Assembly (NCBI GenBank): GCA_964016885.1
Contig: OZ024741.1
Span: 27,156,001-27,220,000 of the forward strand
Source of the DNA: Eledone cirrhosa
Lineage: Eukaryota
Reading direction: 5' to 3'
DNA: 64,000 nt
Both the position numbers and the translations under genes were made by a program. This document shows, one piece after another, positions 3,265-23,603 of this stretch (position 1 is its first letter; each line of letters begins with the position of its first letter). The notes under the pieces were generated by a model. That model made no database searches and was not told the origin of the DNA. It saw only the letters and a list, made by a program, of their open reading frames with translations.

Positions 3265-3525
3265 AAATGCTTGGACCTATTCATTAGCATCTTGGAGCTT
3301 ATTTTACAGGTGATACGGCGCATGCCTTTCTGGCATGACACCCATAATTTTGATTTAGATTAAATTCACTTTGAGATATATATATATTTATATATGCAAA
3401 GTTTTATTTAAATTGTTGGGTTACAACGAGTAAATATTTATAACTGATATAAAAGCACTCAGCAAGTATTTGGAGTATATTTACGATATTAAATAAATGG
3501 AAACTATATTTATAAAACCATATTT

Positions 3526-3589
3526 ATTTCATTATATATATTTCAGGGATATCATATTAAAAATATGGTATGCCTTCTTCAGACAAAAT
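3526..3589 (-). ncRNA. Type I hammerhead ribozyme motif
   Basis: Minus strand reads attttgt CTGAAGA aggcataccatat-tttta-atatgatatccct GAAA tatata TA atgaaat; stems I, II and palindromic III pair. Confidence 0.75.
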
Positions 3590-3796
3590 ACAATATAAAC
3601 AGTCTTATAAATAGATAGATTTGACATACCTTACAACTTCAACTTCCATTTAAAAAGTTGATTTGGTAGTCAAATCAGAAGAGATATTTATGTAGAAGAG
3701 ATATTTAATTTGTTGGAAATCCAACAAATATAGATTTCTGGAGTAAGTATTCAATGATATTAAATAAATGGAAACTATATTTATAAAACCAAATTT

Positions 3797-3856
3797 ATTC
3801 TATTATATATATTTCAAGGGTACCAACAATTTTGGTACGCTATCATCAGATAAAAT
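3797..3856 (-). ncRNA. Type I hammerhead ribozyme motif (U10.1/U11.1 variant)
   Basis: Minus strand reads attttat CTGATGA t-agcgtaccaa-aattg-ttggtaccct-t GAAA tatata TA atagaat. Confidence 0.75.
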
Positions 3857-4767
3857 AAAATGTTTTATAAATATTTGACATGACCAAGGATAATATACCT
3901 TAACGGTTTAAGTTATCCCTGGAAAGTGAAGGGAAGAAAGAAGAAAAGTCGGATATTTAAAATTATTAATATGTGTTTGCAAATGATGTTTATATTAAAG
4001 GGCTGAAAAAACGTTATTTTAGACGCTATGGAAAATTTAAATATTTATGATAAGGAAGAGAAAGAGAAAAAGAAAAAGAGAAAGAGAAAAGAATAACGTT
4101 CATTTGGGGGAAAAGATTTTTGTTACCTATATTATGAGTTATAAAATTATATGAAGAATTATGTTTGTAAGTATTTTTATTTTATTACATTAGGATAGGT
4201 TATATGTATATAAATATCTCTATATATATTAATAAATTGCGTATGCATTGATTGTTTATATAAACTAATATGAGTTACGAAAGATGTTGAAATTTTATTT
4301 TCAATTTGTGAGATTAGAATAATTTGTGGATTCAAAAATTTTCAACATTGAGAATGTTTTGACAATATTGTTAATTTAACGAAGCTATATAAATTATCAA
4401 ACTAAAATTGTTAAAGAAGAAGGAAAAGGAAGACCACTTAAACGTTAACTTAGGGGAAATATATTTAGACATTTATCTATATTTATATGGAGAATTATTT
4501 ATCTTATTATAATAATATATAAATATCTATATATATTTTAATAATAGCATATGTATTTTTTTGTTAAAAGGATAGTTTGTTTATAATATGAGTTACGAGG
4601 GATGTTGATTTATAAATAAAAAAAATAATAAATAGATGTTTGTTCCTAATATAAGTTACTAGGGATTTATTAATATATATATAGATATTTATATACATAT
4701 AACCTATCCTAATGTAATAAGATAAAAATACTTACAACCATAATTCTTCATATAATTTTATAACTCA

Positions 4768-5675
4768 CTAGCAGTGGTACCCGGCGTTGCACGGGATAAG
4801 GTATTTTGGAAGGCGGGCCGCCAACAGACCTAATCGTGGAAAGACTGCATGCCTGGACAATATGTAAAGAAAATAAACCGAATACTCTGATGGCTGGATA
4901 ATCTTTAAGATTTTCCTCGATGAAGCAGGAAAAATGCAGGTTTTCACCTAATGCGGGCCCTAGGGGATCAAGAAAATGAATTTTTTTTATGTGCATAATA
5001 TGCCTTGAAATTTTCGGGAAAATCGGCTAAACGTAACGCCTCCAAAAAGCCCTAAAAAGCTGAAAAAATGAAGTTTTTCACCTAATACGGGCCCATAAAA
5101 AAGTTGAATTTTTTTCTCACGGTATGAAGAAGAGACTGACTAATACATAGTTACAATTTCAAGGAAATCGGTCTGACGTAACGCCTCAAAAAACCCATAA
5201 AAAGCTTTAAAAACGCAGTTTTTCACCTAATGCGGGCCCTAGGAAATCAAAAAGTTGCATAACACTCTCTGAAACATAAGTAATACACATATAAAGTTTG
5301 AAAAAAATCGGTTGGGTACTTCTCGAGTTTTAGGGATTCAAACTCACAGACACATACACACAGAGAGACAGACATTCTCAGGGAAGTGATGTAATGCAGA
5401 CAGCCAGACATACAGACAGATATTATAAAGGCGCGACGTTATATGTATGTATCTATCTAAAAAGAGAAAGACTAAGAATTATAGAGCGAGATCGCTAAAT
5501 CGCCTAATGCGGTCCCTAGGGCATTGAAAATTTGAAATTTCTTTTGCTCAGAACACTCCCTGAAACAAGTATTACGTGTGTAAAGCTTGAAAACAGTCGG
5601 TTGGGTGGTTCTCGAGATTTAGGGATTCAAACCCACACACACACAGACAGACATCCTCAGTTTGATATATATAGA
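4768..5675 (-). mobile_element. Non-autonomous Helitron-like element
   Basis: Minus strand starts TCTATATATA..., has (GTCT)/(GT) repeats, a subterminal hairpin CCCGTGCAACGCCGGG and a CTAG end. It is inserted between A and T with no TSD, as shown by the intact other IR arm. Homologous to 14843-16469. Confidence 0.85.
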
Positions 5676-5914
5676 TAATATAGGTAACTAAATCTTTTCC
5701 CCAAAACTTCCTTCCTTATCATAAATATTTAAATTTTCCATAGCGTCTAAAATAACGTTTTTTCAGCCCTTTAATATAAACATCATTTGCAAACTCATAT
5801 TAATAATTTTAAATATCTGACTTTTCTTCTCTCTTCCCTTCAGTTTCCAGGGATAACTTGAACCGTTAAGGTATATCATCCTTGGTCATGTCAAATGTTT
5901 ATAAAACATTTTAT

Positions 5915-5971
5915 ATTTTATCTGATGATAGCGTACCAACATTTTTGGTACCCTTGAAATATATATATATA
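5915..5971 (+). ncRNA. Hammerhead motif truncated at its (TA)n cleavage loop
   Basis: attttat CTGATGA tagcgtaccaa-cattt-ttggtaccctt GAAA (ta)n, then a Helitron CTAG end instead of the stem I 3' strand. Confidence 0.65.
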
Positions 5972-6129
5972 CTAGCAGAATGGCCCAGCGTTGCTCGGGA
6001 TTTGCTCTAGGGTTCTTATATATTTTATATATATTTATCCTTATCGAGCCTCGTGAAATAAATACGTTTGTTTATTTTTTGTTATTGTGTATGCAAAAAT
6101 ATATGTACACGAATATATAATTATATATA

Positions 6130-13306: not shown

Positions 13307-13947
13307 CATCTTCTGAAGATGTCACTGTCCCCATGGCACAGTGACATCTTCAGAAGATGTCACTGTCCCCATGACACAGTGACATCTTCAGAAGATGTCA
13401 CTGTCCCCATGACACAGTGACATCTTCAGAAGATGTCACTGTCCCCATGACACAGTACCATCTTCAGAAAATGTCATTGTCCCCATGACACAGTACCATC
13501 TTCAGAAGATGTCACTGTCCACATGGCACAGTACCATCTTCAGAAGATGTCACTGTCCCCATGGCACGGTACCATCTTCAGAAGATGTCACTGTCCACAT
13601 GGCACAGTACCATCTTCAGAAGATGTCACTGTCCCCATGGCACGGTACCATCTTCAGAAGATGTCACTGTCCACATGGCACAGTACCATCTTCAGAAGAT
13701 GTCACTGTCCCCATGGCACGGTACCATCTTCAGAAGATGTCACTGTTTCCATGGCACAGTACCATCTTCAGAAGATGTCACTGTCCACATGGCACAGTAC
13801 CATCTTCAGAAGATGTCATTGTCCACATGGCACAGTACCATCTTCAGAAGATGTCACTGTCCCCATGGCACAGTACCATCTTCAGAAGATGTCACTGTCC
13901 CCATGGCACGGTACCATCTTCAGAAGATGTCACTATCCCCATGGCAC
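13307..13947. repeat. 38-bp minisatellite with internal palindrome (CATCTTCAGAAGATG)
   Basis: About 17 copies of GTCACTGTCCCCATGGCACAGTACCATCTTCAGAAGAT. Confidence 0.95.
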
Positions 13948-14842: not shown

Positions 14843-16469
14843 TCTATATATATAAAACTGAGGATGTCTGTGTGTGTGTGAGTTTGAATCCCTAAAACTC
14901 GAGAACCACCAAACCGACTGTTTTCAAACTTTACACATGTAATACTTATGTTTCAGGGAGTGTTCTGAGCCAAAACAATTTCAAATTTTCATTGCCCTAG
15001 GGACCGCATTGGGCGATTTAGCGATCTTGCTCTATAATTCTTAGTCTTTCTCTTTTTAGATAGATACATACATATAACGTCACGCCTTTATAATATCTGT
15101 CTGTATGTCTGGCTGTCTGCATTACATCACTTCCTACAATTCCCTCTACGTCTAGAACGCGCCCTTATAATAGCTGTCTGTATGTTTAGCTGTCTGCTGC
15201 CTCCAGTAATTCTGCCACCCTTGCTCAAGACAAATCTCACACTCATTCCCCAAACAGTTTGTAAGTGCACACAACTTCTTCCTCACGTTTTAAGCCACAG
15301 TGTTTCTTAGTTACATACCACCAGACCCTTACTTCTTTGCCAGCCGTGGTTGTGGCAATACTAAGCTTAGCTAAGGCGGTTATATATTTCACGCAACACT
15401 AAAAATGAAAGCCGATAACTATGTATTAGTCAGTCTCTTCTTCATACCGTGAGCAAAGAAAATCCAACTTTTAGTGGAGCGTGTGAAATAAGTCAACCCT
15501 GCTGCGATTCAAAAATCAGGTTTGCAGGTTATATATTTCATACAACACTAACAATTAAAGCCGGTAAAGAAAAACATCGCTGTAATAGCTTCAGTTTTCT
15601 TACTTACGTGCCTTTACGAGAACAAAAGTTACTATTTTACCGCTTAGTATTGTAGAGAAGCACCAAACCGACTGTTTTCAAACTTTACACATGTAATACT
15701 TATGTTTCAGGGAGTGTTGTGAGCAAAAATAATTTCAAATTTTCAATGCCCTAGGGACCACATTAGGCGATTTAGCGATCTTGTTCTATAATTCTTAGTC
15801 TTTCTCTTTTTAGATAGATACATACATATAACGCCGCGCCCTTATAATATCTGTCTGCATTATGTCACTTCCCTGAGGATGTCTGTCTGTGAGTTTGAAT
15901 CCCTAAAACGCAAGAAGTACCCAACCGATTTTTTTCAAACTTTACATGTGTATTACTTATGTTTCAGTAATACAACTTTTTTATCTCCTAGGGCTTGCAT
16001 TAGGTAAAAAACTGTGTTTTTTAAGATTTTTAGGGGTTTTTTTGAGGCGTTACGTCAGACCGATTTCCTTGAAATTGTAACTATGTATTAGTCAGTCTCT
16101 TCTTCATACCGTAAGCAAAGAAAATCCAACTTTCTTATGGCCTAGGGCCGCATTAGGTGAAAAGCTTCATTTTTTCAGCTTCTTAGGGCTTTTTGGAGGC
16201 GTTACATCTAGCCGATTTTCCCGAAATTTCAAGGCATATTATGCACATGAAAAAAATTTGTTTTCTTGATCCCCCAGGGCCCACATTAGGTGAAAACCTG
16301 CATTTTTCCTGCTTCATCGAGGAAAATCTTAAAGATTATCCAGCCATCAGAGTATTCGGTTTATTTTCTTTACATATTGTCCAGGCATGCAGTTTTTCCA
16401 CGATTAGGTCTGTTGGCGGCCCGCCTTCCAAAATACCCTATCCCGTGCAATGCCGGGTACCACTGCTAG
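14843..16469 (+). mobile_element. Non-autonomous Helitron-like element (longer variant)
   Basis: A|TCTATATATATAAAACTGAGG start, CCCGTGCAATGCCGGG hairpin, CTAG|T end, internal duplication (~14900-15130 vs ~15655-15870); reverse-complement homolog of 4768-5675. Confidence 0.85.
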
Positions 16470-16752
16470 TAATATATAAAAAAATTGGTTAAATTAACAA
16501 CTATTTCCCCAGCAAAACGTGTGTTTTCAACAGATAAAAATGCTGTAAATGTAATGTAACCAATTTTTTTGTATATATATATATATATATATATTAATTT
16601 GAGTATGTGTTGAGTAGTTACGGACACTTCAGAATGCAGGGTAGAACACTCAATGAAGTGTGCAGGTGGGTCTGTTTACTCCAGAGTAATTTAAAAACAA
16701 GAAGTGTAGGTCAACAGGTTAAAAATAACTTCATTTATTCATATTCAGTGTT

Positions 16753-19700
16753 CATCATCATCATCAACGTTTAACGTCCGCTTGCATGGGTTTGGACGGG
16801 GGTTTTCCCACTTGAGGCAAGAGTGATTATCTTGCTCGCATAGGACTTTCTGGCGGGTTTTCTACAGCTGGATGCCCTTCCTAACACCAACCACATTTAC
16901 AGTGTGGGGCTGGGAGGTTTTTACCGTGTTGCCTACACGGCCACATTACAGCGTGGACTGTCTGGCGGGATTTCTACAGCTGGATGCCCTTCCTAACACC
17001 AACCACATTTACAGTGTGGGGCTGGGAGGTTTTTACCGTGTTGCCTACACGGCCACATTACAGCGTGGACTGTCTGGCGGGATTTCTACAGCTGGATGCC
17101 CTTCCTAACACCAACCACATTTACAGTGTGGGGCTGGGAGGTTTTTACCGTGTTGCCTACACGGCCACATTACAGCGTGGACTGTCTGGCGGGATTTCTA
17201 CAGCTGGATGCCCTTCCTAACACCAACCACATTTACAGTGTGGGGCTGGGAGGTTTTTACCGTGTTGCCTACACGGCCACATTACAGCGTGAACTGTGTG
17301 TTTTTTGACGTGACACCTACACGATCTCATTTGTTTCGGCCTGCATGTTGTGGCACCAACATAACTTTACATTGAAAGGGGCGGTGTGGATGGGATGGGG
17401 ATGGTGGGACGGGGGTGTATTTTGTTAGAGATGCCTACTGACTGTAGTAGGTTTTGCTTTGTATTTAGGTAAGGCGGGTCTTCTCTATTATTGAGTACCG
17501 CCAAAGGTCTCGGTCCAGTGACATTGTCGTCTTTCATGCGCATCACGTGACCATACCAACGTAGCCTTCTCTCGAGTAAACAACATCTGATCCCTCTTAT
17601 TTCTAATTTTTTCCTTAGTTCGTTTCTGCTTTGCCGTTCACGTATATTACTATTACACATCCAGCGGAGCATGCAAGCTTCGTTTCTCTCTAGTCTGCGT
17701 ATATCCTCTGCACACAATGCCCAGGTCTCACTGCCATGCAACATTGCTGTTCGTATGCAGGCATCATACAACCTGCCTTTCATTTTTAGGGAGAACCCTT
17801 TAGCGGCTAATAGTGGTATAAGCTCTCTGAATTTTTTCCATCCAGTTCTGACTCTAGCTACTGTACTTTCAGAGCACCCTCCCCCACTGCTGATTTTGTC
17901 ACCCAGGTAACGGAAGCTGTCCACTATTTCTATAGAACCCTCTGCGCAGTTGAAAGAGCTAGTATTTTGTGGGCACTTGCTGCTACTTATTGCACCAGAG
18001 CACCGGCCACATGTAAAATCTATGTTCTTAGTTAGCTTACCTGTGATCCCACTACATCTTTTATGCACCCATACTTTGCATTTGGGACACAAAATGGAGT
18101 TTCTACCTACGCCTTTCCTACACACTGAGCATGGCCACTTCCCGGAAGGGACCGCCGCCTTATTTTCTTTCTTACAAACTAGAACTTTAGTCTTAGCCAG
18201 GTTAATTTTAAGGCCTTTTGATTCTAGGCCGTGCTTCCATGTTTGGAATTTCTTCTCTAGCTTGGCCATTGATTCAGCTATGAGTGTTAGGTCATCTGCG
18301 TATAGGAGTTCCCATGGGCAACCGGTCTTGAACTCCTCTGTTATAGCCTGAAGGGCAATAATAAATAGTACGGGGCTGAGAACAGAGCCCTGACGGACGC
18401 CAACTTTTACGCTAAACTCTTCACTATATTCGTTGTTAATTCTAACCTTGCTGACTGTTTCTTTATACATGGCTTGTATAGCTCTCACAAGCCATTCGTC
18501 AACACCTAGTTTTCTAAGAGCCCACCAGATAATGGAACGGGGGACTCTGTCGAAGGCTTTCTCCAAGTCAACAAAAGCTAAGTATAGGGGTTTACTTTTA
18601 GCTAGGTACTTCTCCTGTAGTTGTCGTACAATGAAAAGAGCGTCTGTGGTACTTTTGCCTGACACAAACCCGAACTGCATTTCATCTAGATCAATTCTCT
18701 CTCTGATTAGTTGCGCTATTACTTTTTCCGTGACCTTCATGACCTGGTCGATTAATTTAATGTCTCTATAGTTACTCCTATCTAGGGCATCTCCTTTACC
18801 CTTATAACAGTTAACGATGATGCTGCTACGCCAGTCCTTCGGAACAACCCCATTCTGTACGACTTGGTTAACTATCCGGGTGACCATGGTGTGTCCCACC
18901 GTACCAGATGCCTTCAGCATCTCGGCAACTATTTCCGAAGGCCCAGCCGCCTTACCCGTCTTCATATCTTTGATTGCCTTACTTATTATACTACCCTCGA
19001 CTAACACTGCTGGTCCCTCTATTGGGTCGATGTGGGGGAGACTGTCTTTCTCCCATTTATTCTCCTCATTTAGTAGCCTTTCATAGTGACACTTCCAAGC
19101 TACCTTCTTATCAGCGTCGGTGATGGCAAGTACGCCGTCATCATTAAGTACACACTTCTCCCTGACAATATCACGGTTTTCCTTGACACATTGCCTAGCA
19201 ATCCTGAACACCTCACATTTTTGGTCCTCGCGTTGTAGAACATGCTTGAACTTTCTTTCCTCTGCTTCCCTTCTTGCGAAGTACACTTGTCTCCTAGCTT
19301 CCATCCTGGCCACTTGATAGTCTTCTCCACTTCCCCCATCCTGCCATACTTTCCAAGCCTGCTTTTTGGCCTTAATTGACCCCTCCACCTTACTGTTCCA
19401 CCACCATGTTACTCTCCTCCTGCCTACAGGCCTGCTCCAGCCACAGACTTTGTCTGCCGCCATCAGCAGGTTTGCTTTCAGGAATTCCCACTGCTCCTCT
19501 ATATTGTACGACTCTAATTCCTCTTCCTTACTGTCGAAAGCATCAAGTAGTATACTTTTGAATTTATTTCTGGCTGTGGGGTCCTTTAGCTTCCATATTT
19601 TTCTCCTGAGGATAGTCCTCTTCTGTTGTCTAGTACGTCTCATCCTGACTATTAGGTCGCTAATTATCAGTCTATGTTGGGAAGTGCATTCTTCATGGGG

Positions 19701-20880
19701 GAGGGATTTAGTGTTTACAACAGACACTCTGTCACATCTTCTGGTAAGGATATAATCTACCTGGCTGGTATGTTCCCTGATCTGTAGGTGATCAGGTGAT
19801 TGTCACGTTTTTTGAAGTTAGTGTTACAGATAGTTAGGTTATTTGCATCACAGAATTCTAGGATTCTGGAGCCTTCCTCATTTCTAGTACCAAACCCATA
19901 GCCTCCATGGATTTCGTCGTAGCCGTCACAATGTTGTCCAACGTGACCATTTAGGTCGCCTGCAATAATTATATAGTCACTGTCGGTTATTTGGGAGGTA
20001 GTGAGTATCAGTGTCTCATAGAATCTGTCTTTTATAGTGCTGGGCAGTCCGGATTAGGGTGCGTACGCAGATATTACTGTCACCGTAGTTCTATTGAGGA
20101 CAAGTCTTATTTTAATTATTCTGTCGTTCACTCTATTTACGTCTATTATCTTATCTGCCCACGGTGGATTGGCAGTATTGGTAGAGGGTCGGACGCCATG
20201 CTTTCCAGCATAGTTACGTCCCTTTACGATCTGAGTTCAAATCCCGCCGAGATTGACTTTGCCTTTCATCCTTACGGGGTCGATAAAATAAAGTACCAGT
20301 AAGACACTGGGTAATTGCTGGCCTTGTGCCTAAAGTAGAAACAATTATCTTATCTGCTCACTTTTCTGCTACCATGAATCCTACTCCACCCAGCCCATTG
20401 TCATTTCCCACCCAGAAAAGCTTATAGCATCGTTTTTTACCCACAATGAATCTAGCAGACCCACCCCTCCACCTGGTCTCTTGAATACAACAAACATCGA
20501 CCTCCTTACGTTCAAGCATTTCTACAACCTCGTTAGAGCGACCCTTTAAGGTGCCTACATTCATGGTACCAACTCTGAAGTTTTGGATTGCGTTTGGAGG
20601 TTGGGAGCGGTGGGGAGCGGGTGGAGATGGGGTTATGTTAGCCATCTGCGGCCGAAACAAAGAGGAATGCTCGCATTCTCGTCCACGAGGTGAATTTGTC
20701 TTTATCTTTGGCATTGTCACTGAGCGTCCAGATTTTTCTCTCTTCAACTCTCCAGAATTCCGTAGTCCCTCCATCCGTCATATCGAAGGCGACCAGGTAA
20801 GCGATAGTATAGGCCTCTGGCTTATGATTGGTCCACGTAATAATAATGGTGGTGCGTGGGGGCGGGCGGGAGGGGTGTTG
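16753..20880 (-). mobile_element. Longest RTE LINE family A copy (APE+RT), disrupted by a SINE insertion, a frameshift and a C-terminal deletion
   Basis: ORFs 20358-20774 (GTMNVGTL, CCIQETRW) and 17367-19727 (QGSVLSP, YADD, FRYLG); 3' UTR with a 112-bp unit repeated 4 times; (CAT)n tail at 16753. Confidence 0.95.
20163..20343 (+). mobile_element. SINE inserted in the LINE endonuclease region, with 18-bp TSD
   Basis: TSD ATTATCTTATCTGC(C/T)CAC at 20145-20162 and 20344-20361; this sequence is single-copy in the intact LINE at 36123-36140. Confidence 0.9.
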
Positions 20881-21256
20881 TATATATATTTCAGTGATAC
20901 CCATTATTCAACAACTATGATCTCATCAGACAGCTAGAACTTGAACAAAAAAAACAGAAAAACATAATGATGGAACAAAGTTTACCTCTTCTATTTCAAT
21001 CTTTTGATATGCCCAATCCCAAAGGATGGTGTTGCTTTCTCAAAGAACTGGTGGCATATCTTTGAGAAAACAACACCATACTTCGGTATTGGGCATATCA
21101 AAGGATTGTTCCAACATTATGTTTTTCTGTTTTTTATGTTCAAGTTCTAGCTGTCTGATGAGGTCATAGCTGTTGAATAATGGGTATCACCGAAATATAT
21201 ATAACAGCGAATATGAATAAACAAAACTATTTTTAACCTGTTGACTTACACTTCTT

Positions 21257-21260
<4 letters not shown>
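20881..21260. repeat. Fold-back element with hammerheads in both arms; the rest of the left arm is displaced to 16695-16752 by the LINE
   Basis: 20881-20978 and 20997-21045 are reverse complements of 21105-21203 and 21060-21108; 21203-21260 matches the reverse complement of 16695-16752. Confidence 0.85.
21150..21208 (+). ncRNA. Type I hammerhead ribozyme motif
   Basis: gctgt CTGATGA ggtcatagctgtt-gaat-aatgggtatcacc GAAA tatata TA acagc; canonical G10.1-C11.1 pair and perfect 5-bp stem I. Confidence 0.8.
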
Positions 21261-21288
<28 letters not shown>

Positions 21289-21294
<6 letters not shown>

Positions 21295-21564: not shown

Positions 21565-21570
<6 letters not shown>

Positions 21571-23603
21571 CATCATCACTGTTTTACGTCCGTTCTTCCA
21601 CGCTAGCATGGGTTAGACGGGTTGTCCTGTTGTGGGCAGTGTCTGGTCGGCTGACCATGCCTTGTTCATACAGGAACTGATTTGGCTTGATTTCTACAGC
21701 TGGATGCTCTTCCTAACACCAACCTCATTTACAGTGAGTGCTCGCTGCTTTTCCGTGGCGCCTACACGTCCACTTTACAGTGTGGGCTGGGTGCTTTTTT
21801 GCCGTGGCACCTCCACGACCACCTTGCAGTGGCGGGTGTGGGGGCATATTGTCTATATGCTTCAGCTTGTACCCATGGGAGGTCGGGTACTCTGTATTAC
21901 TGCGTGACGCCAGAGGTCACGGTCGTGTGTCATTGCCTTTGAGAGGTGTAATTTGATAAGGTCGGCTTTTATCACCTCATCCCAGGTCATCTTGGGTCTC
22001 CCCACTCCGCGGTTTCCATCGACTTCTAGTGCTCTGCACCTTTTTATGCAGCTGTCATCCTTCATACGCATCACATGTCCACACCAGCGCAACCGCCTCT
22101 CCTGCACACATCATTTGATTCCTCTTATGCTCAGTCTCTCTCTCAATTCATTTATGCTTTGTCGTTCGCGTATATTACTGTTACACATCCATCGGAGCAT
22201 GCAGGCTTCGTTTCTCTCTAATCTACGTAAGTCTTCCACCTTCAGCGCCCAGGTCTCACTACCATGCAACATCGCTGTTCGGATACACGCATCATACAGT
22301 CTGCCTTTCATTTTGAGGGAGAAGCCTTTTGCAGCTAGCAGTGGTAGTAGTTCCCTAAACTTCTTCCATCCCGTTCTTGTACTTTCTGAATACCCACCTC
22401 CGCTACTAATTCGGTCACCTAGGTATCAGAAGCTGTCTACTGTTTCTACAGAGCCCTCCCAGAGATCGGTGGTACTTGTTTCCTGTGGCTGTTTGCTGCT
22501 TGCTGTCCCAGCACAGCTGCTGCATGTGAAGCCTACATTCTTAATTAAGCTTCCTGAGATCCCGCTACATCTCTTGTGTACCCATTGTTTGCATTTGGGG
22601 CAGAGAATGGAGTTCCTACATACTGAGCAAGGCCATTTCCCTGAGGGGATCTGGGTTCTGTCTTCTCGTCTACTTACAAGGACCTTAGTCTTTGTCATGT
22701 TGACTTTGAGACCCTTTCTTTCTAGTCCCTGCTTTCAAGTTTGGAATTTCTTCTCTAGTTCTACCATAGATTCAGCTATAAGTGCGAGGTCATCAGCATA
22801 CAGGAGTTCCCATGGGCATCCGGTCTTAAACTCCTCCGTTATTGCCTGCAGGACTATGATGAACAGGAGGGGGCTAAGAACAGGGCTCTGGTGGACCCCA
22901 ACCTGTATGCTAAATTCCTTGCTATACTCATTGCTAATCCTAACTTTGCTGACTGCTCCCCTATACATGGCTTGTACCGCTTTCACAAGCCATTCATCTA
23001 CTCCTAGTTTTCTAAGAGCCCACCAGATTATAGCATGGAGAACTCTGTCAAAGGCTTTCTCGAGATCGACGAATGCCAGGTAGAGTGGCTTACTTTTAGC
23101 TAGGTACTTTTCCTGAAACTGCCTCACAAGGAAGAGGGCATCAGTGGTGCCTCTTCCTGGCACAAACCCAAATTGCATCTCATCTAGTTTCACCCGGTCC
23201 CTAATCAACTGTGCTATAACTCTTTCTGTTACTTTCATGATCTTTCCATCAGCTTTATACCTCTATAGTTTCCTCTATCTAGTGCATCACCTTTACCTTT
23301 GTAGCAGTTGACAATGATCCTACTGCACCAATCTTTTGGTATGACACCTTCTAGTATTACCTGGTTAACAATACGTGTGGTTATAGTGTGACCTACAGAC
23401 CCAGATGCCTTCAGCATCTCGGCAGCTATACCCGATGGACCGGTTGCCTTCCCCATCTTCATATCTTTGATTGCCTTACTTACTACGCTGCTGCTGACTT
23501 GTACTGCTGGCCCCTCTATAGGATCTACTTTGGATATGGTCTCTTCTTCCCATGTATTCTCCTCATTTAGTAATCTATCATAATGACTCTTCCATGCATC
23601 TTT
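21565..23603 (-). mobile_element. 5'-truncated degenerate RTE LINE, family B
   Basis: RT fragments 22735-23238 (YADD), 22426-22698, 22111-22311 and 21862-22107; 3' UTR and tail; both ends in (TA)n. Confidence 0.95.

What the first reader, a model, noticed from the sequence alone, without database searches (positions are those of the whole stretch)
16695..21260. 4.1-kb RTE LINE inserted at the cleavage site of a hammerhead in one arm of a fold-back
Seen: the right arm reads ...GAAA tatatata|acagcgaatatgaataaa...cttcttgttt (21192-21260). The left-arm mirror is split. Its core is at 20881-20934, ending exactly at the tatatata, and its continuation (aaacaagaagtgt...tttattcatattcagtgtt) is at 16695-16752 next to the LINE (CAT)n tail. 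This fixes both LINE ends and places the insertion within ~1 nt of the NUH cleavage site, on the same strand as the ribozyme and with no clear TSD. Inference: most simply, the (TA)4 of stem III matches the RTE's TA target, so these ribozymes act as landing pads. An RNA-level link to cleaved ends is the more exotic alternative.
Basis: partly seen in the sequence, partly recalled or inferred. Interest (0 to 1): 0.7.

Follow-up and report, generated by a model that had tools for sequence, protein, structure and literature searches.

The report
LINE landed in ribozyme's TA run
A jumping gene sits within one base of the predicted cut site of a self-cutting RNA motif carried by an older jumping gene, but its relatives enter such motifs from both directions and hit an ordinary AT-rich spot nearby at least as often, so this is likely an ordinary nested insertion at TA-rich DNA.

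Summary
Removing 16752/3-20880 rejoins the left arm, which aligns to the right arm (179 of 196 paired bases). The LINE is 5'-truncated, so its 5' junction is exact: it falls on the predicted hammerhead cleavage bond, with at most one duplicated A. The ribozyme-specific readings fail. In this hammerhead family ours is the only RTE-tail junction found, against 286 intact copies. In two larger TA-stem hammerhead families, RTE tails lie in stem III on both strands (5 same, 4 opposite). With ours, the same-strand junctions occupy five different TA steps. A non-ribozyme AT site about 25 nt downstream in one of those families holds 27 tail junctions, 15 at one base with our junction's geometry; the stem III rate is about 0.3-0.4 times that. 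The LINE (0.7% rare substitutions) is several times younger than the arm it splits (4-5%), which argues against joint insertion from spliced-together RNAs. Best reading: DNA-level target-primed insertion at a T^A step in an old, likely Penelope-derived fold-back stub. Unchecked notes of this scan report related, more targeted cases in other genomes. Ordinary.

The parts
16573..16596 (.). (TA)n microsatellite, left flank of the fold-back element
16597..16751 (-). Left arm, 3' part: 3' strand of hammerhead stem I (16751-16747) plus the element's 3' region, including a ~98-nt extension beyond the end used by the right arm
   Evidence: the extension is seen in about 10 of 30 family copies by eye
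16752..16766 (-). LINE 3' tail (TGA)n; base 16752 is either tail or a 1-nt duplication of H17
16753..20880 (-). 5'-truncated, inactivated RTE-type LINE (4.1 kb), 95-98% identical to 20 fetched relatives
16843..17290 (-). 112-bp tandem array in the LINE 3' UTR: 4 units here, 0-2 in 20 relatives
17367..19802 (-). 811-codon open frame: RT (RVT_1, E 3e-32) and PHD finger (E 1e-5); 119-nt deletion at 17528 and 1-nt deletion at 19777 against an intact relative
20163..20361 (.). 199-nt secondary insertion in the endonuclease domain, SINE-like by appearance (label recalled, not tested)
   Evidence: no tRNA called
20358..20777 (-). N-terminal part of the APE endonuclease frame (Exo_endo_phos E 2.5e-4, below the curated cut-off)
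20881..20934 (-). Left-arm hammerhead, 5' part: stem I 5' strand, CUGAUGA, stem II, GAAA and (TA)4 ending at H17
20935..21059 (-). Left arm, 5' part, up to the fold-back axis
21060..21260 (+). Right arm: 5'-truncated inverted copy with an intact type I hammerhead motif (21150-21208; predicted cut 21203/21204)
21261..21292 (.). (TA)n microsatellite, right flank

Best explanation
A young RTE-type LINE sits at the predicted cleavage bond of a hammerhead motif in one arm of an older, likely Penelope-derived fold-back stub, and it likely got there by ordinary DNA-level target-primed reverse transcription at a T^A step of the motif's (TA)4 run. Shown: the junctions, the 5' truncation, the age order, and that relatives of this LINE enter such TA runs on both strands and in several registers. 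Inferred: the endonuclease nicked the bottom strand at the outermost T^A step, the primer's terminal T paired with the A of the (UGA)n tail, synthesis stopped in the 5' leader, and the top-strand break one base away left a 1-nt duplication. The run is there because dimer-type hammerheads carry a short palindromic helix III (PMC4209133), here made of TA; its outer edge is by construction next to the cleavage bond, which explains the coincidence.
For: TA preference of the LINE: 11 of 17 relatives with a readable 3' end have a TA run within about 8 nt of the tail (by eye); 18 of 65 RTE ends in 800 kb of evenly spaced sample abut 3 or more TA units. Both strands: 5 same-strand and 4 opposite-strand RTE junctions in stem III of families B and C (binomial p = 1.0). 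Registers 1, 3, 5, 5, 7, 9 nt among six same-strand junctions including ours. No enrichment: 1 against 286 in family A. A control site in family C has 27 tail junctions against 5-7 in stem III; rate ratio 0.28 (95% 0.08-0.93) to 0.39 (0.12-1.2). Same geometry off the ribozyme: 15 of the 27 control junctions lie at one ATAT^A base, and the 8 with both ends in view (of 10 inspected) show 0-5 nt of apparent duplication. Age: LINE 19 of 2631 rare substitutions (0.72%) against 16 of 315 (5.1%) in the rejoined left arm, Fisher p = 1e-7.
Against: Ours is the only one of six same-strand junctions in the register next to the cut site, and all of the TA lies on its 5' side, unlike most relatives. The pattern searches miss junctions whose TA run later grew beyond 12-20 nt, which would undercount stem III more than the control site. 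The denominators for families B and C come from small counts in 800 kb (10, 8, 15, 4, 3). The 5- versus 4-strand comparison used anchors of different sensitivity. No empty allele of this locus was seen.
Confidence: 0.93

Rival explanations
1. The RTE is specifically drawn to these hammerhead elements at the DNA level (a true landing pad, for example through cruciform extrusion of the fold-back or a special fit of the stem III sequence).
For: At least 10 RTE junctions in stem III across three families including ours. Two of them (ours and L171) are in one arm of a fold-back.
Against: The per-site rate in stem III is about 1e-4 per strand, below a uniform expectation of 6e-4 per 15-nt window and below the control site at 4.8e-4. 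No further case among 286 family-A copies (upper 95% bound about 1%). None of 29 close relatives of this LINE showed a hammerhead at its 5' junction in the flanks printed, and the junction string is unique in the genome.
Confidence: 0.04
2. RNA-level link: a reverse transcriptase copied the 3' cleavage product of the hammerhead, jumped to the LINE RNA's tail, then jumped to the 5' cleavage product (or the RNAs were ligated), so the LINE and the arm were inserted together.
For: Same strand as the ribozyme, 5' junction exactly on the predicted cleavage bond, and a reading with no duplication at all is possible.
Against: It predicts equal age, but the arm carries 4-5% of rare substitutions against 0.7% in the LINE. 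It predicts one strand and one register, but both strands and five registers occur. Single minimal hammerheads of this type showed no cleavage in vitro (PMC4209133, passage), and read-through RNA of a fold-back would be expected to pair arm with arm (inference from the DNA fold).
Confidence: 0.02
3. The arrangement is an assembly artefact or a later rearrangement that joined repeats by chance.
For: All parts are high-copy repeats; no record bridged the 5' junction in four runs.
Against: The flanks rejoin without a gap. A 76-nt contig of run X4 covers 16702-16777 across the 3' junction with one other letter; it has only 25 nt on the LINE side, under the tool's 31-nt rule, and X4 may be the assembly's own sample.
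Confidence: 0.01

Closest known systems
RTE-clade LINEs of octopus, e.g. RTE-2_OV (Petrosino et al. 2022, PMC9115989; passages)
   Same: Single long frame with endonuclease and RT (1112-1113 codons stop to stop in two relatives; 1109 aa in RTE-2_OV); microsatellite-rich 3' end
   Different: Identity with RTE-2_OV was not tested. This copy is truncated, frameshifted and interrupted. The passages I read say nothing on insertion targets.
Penelope-like element stubs with minimal type I hammerheads and an inverted 5'-truncated copy (Cervera and de la Pena 2014, PMC4209133; Craig et al. 2021, PMC8557442; passages and section 11)
   Same: Type I hammerhead with short palindromic helix III, two motifs 100-700 bp apart on opposite strands, an inverted truncated copy, (TA)n target, an optional 3' extension on one end
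   Different: No RT/GIY-YIG frame could be tied to this family (20 extended loci). The extension is about 98 nt, not the 30-40 bp tail described.
Target-specific Tx1-clade LINEs that insert into other transposons (recalled, e.g. Xenopus Tx1L; the scan's unchecked notes e1-8593294 and e1-8593195 report Tx1 families confined to Penelope hammerheads)
   Same: A LINE found inside another element's hammerhead
   Different: Those are described as near-exclusive and site-fixed. This RTE has an estimated 240,000 related 3' ends genome-wide, of which about ten were found in stem III, on both strands.

Membership tests
RTE-clade LINE | Single ORF with N-terminal APE endonuclease and RT, no separate ORF1 | tested here: met
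   Pfam RVT_1 and a weak Exo_endo_phos hit; 1112-1113-codon single frames in 2 of 20 relatives; no other frame of 400 codons or more was among the six longest listed
RTE-clade LINE | Short tandem-repeat 3' tail rather than poly(A) | tested here: met
   (TGA)n tail here and in 17 of 20 relatives
RTE-clade LINE | RT groups with RTE references in a phylogeny | not tested
   No reference set was fetched; the clade label rests on architecture and on recalled motifs
Type I hammerhead ribozyme | Core CUGANGA, GAAA and NUH with stems I and II | tested here: met
   Right arm: stem I 5 of 5 pairs, stem II -6.2 kcal/mol, G10.1-C11.1 present. Rejoined left arm: stem I 4 of 5, stem II -1.3. Stem I strands change together between families.
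Type I hammerhead ribozyme | Match to a curated Rfam hammerhead model | tested here: not met
   No hammerhead family among 74 matches at E<=1 over the window; the free MFE fold of the right arm also did not give the three-way junction
Type I hammerhead ribozyme | Self-cleavage | not testable with these tools
   The cut site is predicted from the numbering only
Penelope-like element | RT plus GIY-YIG ORF linked to the terminal repeat | tested here: inconclusive
   PLE-type RT or GIY-YIG fragments lie near other hammerhead copies and in 6 of 20 extended family-A loci. The one examined closely (L245) has its own repeated end and is a separate element.
Penelope-like element | Hammerhead in the terminal repeat, inverted 5'-truncated copy, (TA)n target, optional tail | tested here: met
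   6 of 30 family copies are fold-backs over the hammerhead
Target-specific LINE (Tx1-like homing to another element) | Most copies at one site and one orientation in the host element | tested here: not met

The most novel reading that the evidence does not exclude
Reverse transcriptase template jumping or RNA ligation places a LINE RNA between the two cleavage products of a hammerhead, so that a small subset of insertions are RNA-level chimeras marked by sense orientation and a junction on the scissile bond; this locus would be one, hidden among ordinary TA insertions.
Probability: 0.02. Interest if true: 0.75.

Novelty: new member of a known kind. Interest (0 to 1): 0.15.

Why it matters
As it stands it matters little: one nested insertion among an estimated dozen of its kind in this genome. 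It is a useful negative control for the scan's other 'element at a hammerhead cut site' findings, because it shows that a TA-palindromic helix III puts a common insertion target next to the scissile bond, so single cases must be tested for strand, register and age. The side result, a recurrent RTE junction at one ATAT^A base in family C, could help define the nicking preference of this RTE endonuclease.

Tried and rejected
Rfam scan: no hammerhead model hit. Pattern for non-native bases after the (TA)4: 221 matches, mostly a subfamily whose native next base is G; 11 fetched places, 6 of them chosen for a following C, were all hammerhead variants without a LINE at the site. Family-A opposite-strand search: 7 matches against 14 in the control, none in a family-A copy. 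One search's second match is not a family copy. Empty-allele search: 9 runs listed, none holding half of the words; two layings gave short repeat-derived records, no joint and no empty allele, so they decide nothing on polymorphism. Generic (TA) baseline: 11 RTE ends next to 3-5 TA units against 629 TA runs of 8-10 nt in 800 kb, about 1.7% per site and above the hammerhead rates, but not age-matched, so given little weight. Search for the parent ORF of family A failed (14 of 104 candidate frames were sent to Pfam). A 5' HDV-like ribozyme in the full-length LINE was not tested, as this copy lacks the 5' end. Paper searches for a published RTE-hammerhead or RTE-(TA)n link gave 0, 1, 6, 122 and 0 papers; none of the listed titles addressed it (listings only; 15 of the 122 shown). 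bioRxiv 10.64898/2026.07.22.740005: two passages, nothing of use; its supplements were not seen.

Full report
Observation. The fold-back and the split are as described. Removing 16752-20880 in a script rejoins the left arm without a gap against the right arm; removing 16753-20880 leaves one extra A. The arms agree at 179 of 196 paired bases, and the right arm has lost 21 nt. The right-arm motif has stem I GCUGU/ACAGC, the core CUGAUGA and GAAA, a folded stem II, and NUH = AUA, with the predicted cut between 21203 and 21204. Rfam did not report it, and cleavage is untested.

The LINE. Pfam finds RT, a PHD finger and, below cut-off, an APE endonuclease start. Two of 20 fetched relatives have a single 1112-1113-codon frame. 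This copy has a 199-nt insertion in the endonuclease, a 1-nt deletion and a 119-nt deletion, so it is dead. In 28 of 29 relatives the sequence continues upstream of our 5' end with a base that differs from the flank in all but one. The copy is therefore 5'-truncated and the 5' junction is exact: all of the (TA)4, including H17, is on the 5' side. At the 3' end one A is shared between the tail and the target. The insertion is on the predicted scissile bond with 0 or 1 nt duplicated. The RTE label rests on architecture and tail; no phylogeny was run.

The host element. Family A is a dispersed repeat: 2639 candidates at first look, 40 scored, 90-94% identical over most of the query. Six of 30 fetched copies are fold-backs over the hammerhead, most end in (TA)n, and about 10 carry the longer 3' end (by eye). 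These are the features described for Penelope-like stubs: minimal hammerheads with a palindromic helix III, pairs on opposite strands 100-700 bp apart (PMC4209133, passages), an inverted 5'-truncated copy, an optional tail and (TA)n targets (PMC8557442, passages and section 11), and AT-rich nicking with two RT start sites (PMC11167929, passages). No RT/GIY-YIG frame could be tied to family A, so membership is likely, not shown. The scan's notes call this genome an octopus; I did not check that.

Is the hammerhead a preferred target? For family A, a genome-wide pattern for an RTE tail before the 3' half gave 2 matches, ours and one non-family site. The opposite orientation gave 7 matches against 14 in the control, none in the family. 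Intact copies with both exact anchors number 286. An evenly spaced sample of 80 stretches (800 kb) held 65 RTE 3' ends (66 rows, one duplicate dropped) and 14 strict TA-stem hammerheads of several families, about 240,000 and 52,000 genome-wide. I therefore tested two larger families. Family B: 0 same-strand and 1 opposite-strand junction, the latter with the 3' half resuming about 1.85 kb on. Family C same strand: 11 matches at 7 places, 5 with an RTE 3' end upstream and 2 without. Family C opposite strand: 11 matches at 6 places; 3 in stem III with the 3' half resuming behind the RTE, 1 about 7 nt past the cut site, 2 not hammerheads. That is 5 against 4 by strand (p = 1.0). The same-strand junctions, with ours, leave 1, 3, 5, 5, 7 and 9 nt of the TA run on the 3' side, so several T^A steps are used and ours is one of them. 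The 5' half was found again for 1 of the 7 same-strand places, so most of these rest on the 3' junction alone.

Age-matched control. The same pattern aimed about 25 nt downstream in family C, outside the ribozyme, gave 37 matches at 27 places. Of 21 inspected, 18 have a strict RTE 3' motif and 3 a degenerate one; 6 were not fetched. With anchor counts of 10 and 15 in the sample, the stem III to control ratio is 0.28 (95% 0.08-0.93) for 5 events or 0.39 (0.12-1.2) for 7. Fifteen of the 27 lie at a single ATAT^A base where the tail shares one A with the target and the TA stays on the 5' side, exactly as in our junction; the 8 of 10 inspected with both ends in view show 0-5 nt of apparent duplication. 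So 'no clear TSD' and the edge position are this LINE's normal habit. Caveat: junctions whose TA run later expanded past the pattern's gap are missed, more so in stem III, so the ratio may be too low; it does not show avoidance, only no enrichment.

Age. An RNA-level chimera would be inserted in one event. The LINE carries 19 rare substitutions in 2631 sites (0.72%; 29 differences from the majority in all), the rejoined left arm 16 in 315 (5.1%), the right arm 5 in 202 (2.5%); p = 1e-7 and 0.024 against the LINE. Eight of 196 paired sites are left-only. The relatives were best hits to the LINE and to the right arm, which flatters the right arm. The LINE came later.

Mechanism. Shown: junctions, truncation, order of events, both-strand and multi-register use. 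Inferred from established LINE biology: a bottom-strand nick at the outermost T^A step, priming on the (UGA)n tail with 1 nt of pairing, incomplete synthesis, and a top-strand break one base away. The target is present because this type of hammerhead uses a short palindrome for helix III. At family C rates about a dozen such events are expected genome-wide; ten were found including ours.

Reads. No run gave an empty allele or a joint. One 76-nt contig of X4 crosses the 3' junction with 25 nt on the LINE side, short of the tool's bridging rule.

Literature and earlier notes. Five searches listed no title on RTE insertion into hammerheads; that is weak evidence of absence. PMC9115989 and PMC13282606 (passages) describe recently active RTE and Penelope-like families in octopus. 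Unchecked notes of this scan describe Penelope fold-back stubs in this genome and truly targeted Tx1 and Harbinger cases in other genomes; I did not test those.

Verdict. A real, cleanly resolved nested insertion with an ordinary cause. Interest 0.15.

Noticed in passing
Family C hammerhead element, about 25 nt 3' of the cut site (loci L208-L237): Recurrent RTE junction at a single ATAT^A base: 15 of 27 control junctions, from different RTE subfamilies and truncation lengths. It suggests a nicking preference narrower than plain TA.
   Followed up: partly
window 3480-5975: A second fold-back of another hammerhead family (motifs at 3849 minus, 5922 plus, and a degenerate one near 3580). The stem III TA run of the 5922 motif abuts a hairpin-plus-CTAG end of Helitron type (label recalled), and the 3' half of that motif was not found again in the window.
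   Followed up: partly
window 4765-5670 and 14848-16470: Related Helitron-like copies with hairpin-plus-CTAG ends, 88% identical over 857 nt.
   Followed up: no
window 21565-23603: A second, 5'-truncated RTE of another subfamily (73-79% to the first) with (TA)n at both ends, 300 nt from the fold-back.
   Followed up: no
window 20163-20361: 199-nt SINE-like insertion in the LINE's endonuclease domain, a third nesting level.
   Followed up: partly
window 16843-17290: 112-bp unit expanded to 4 near-identical copies in the LINE 3' UTR; relatives have 0-2.
   Followed up: partly
L091-L170 (800-kb sample): 14 strict hammerhead motifs with a (TA)4 helix III from several families, about 52,000 genome-wide; three sampled loci (L103, L106, L147) hold opposite-strand pairs.
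   Followed up: partly
L245 (G000:C4:376166500-376174500): A near full-length, frameshifted PLE-type element with its own repeated ends inserted in the (TA)n just behind a family-A copy.
   Followed up: partly
L131: Five RTE 3' ends of two subfamilies followed by nearly the same flank within 7 kb, probably a local tandem amplification.
   Followed up: no
L259 and L260 (C1:341.23 Mb and C1:341.98 Mb): An 8.4-kb segment at 99.8% identity 755 kb apart: recent duplication or uncollapsed haplotype.
   Followed up: no
window 13336-13900: Short-period tandem repeat with palindromic units that draws a sub-threshold microRNA match.
   Followed up: no
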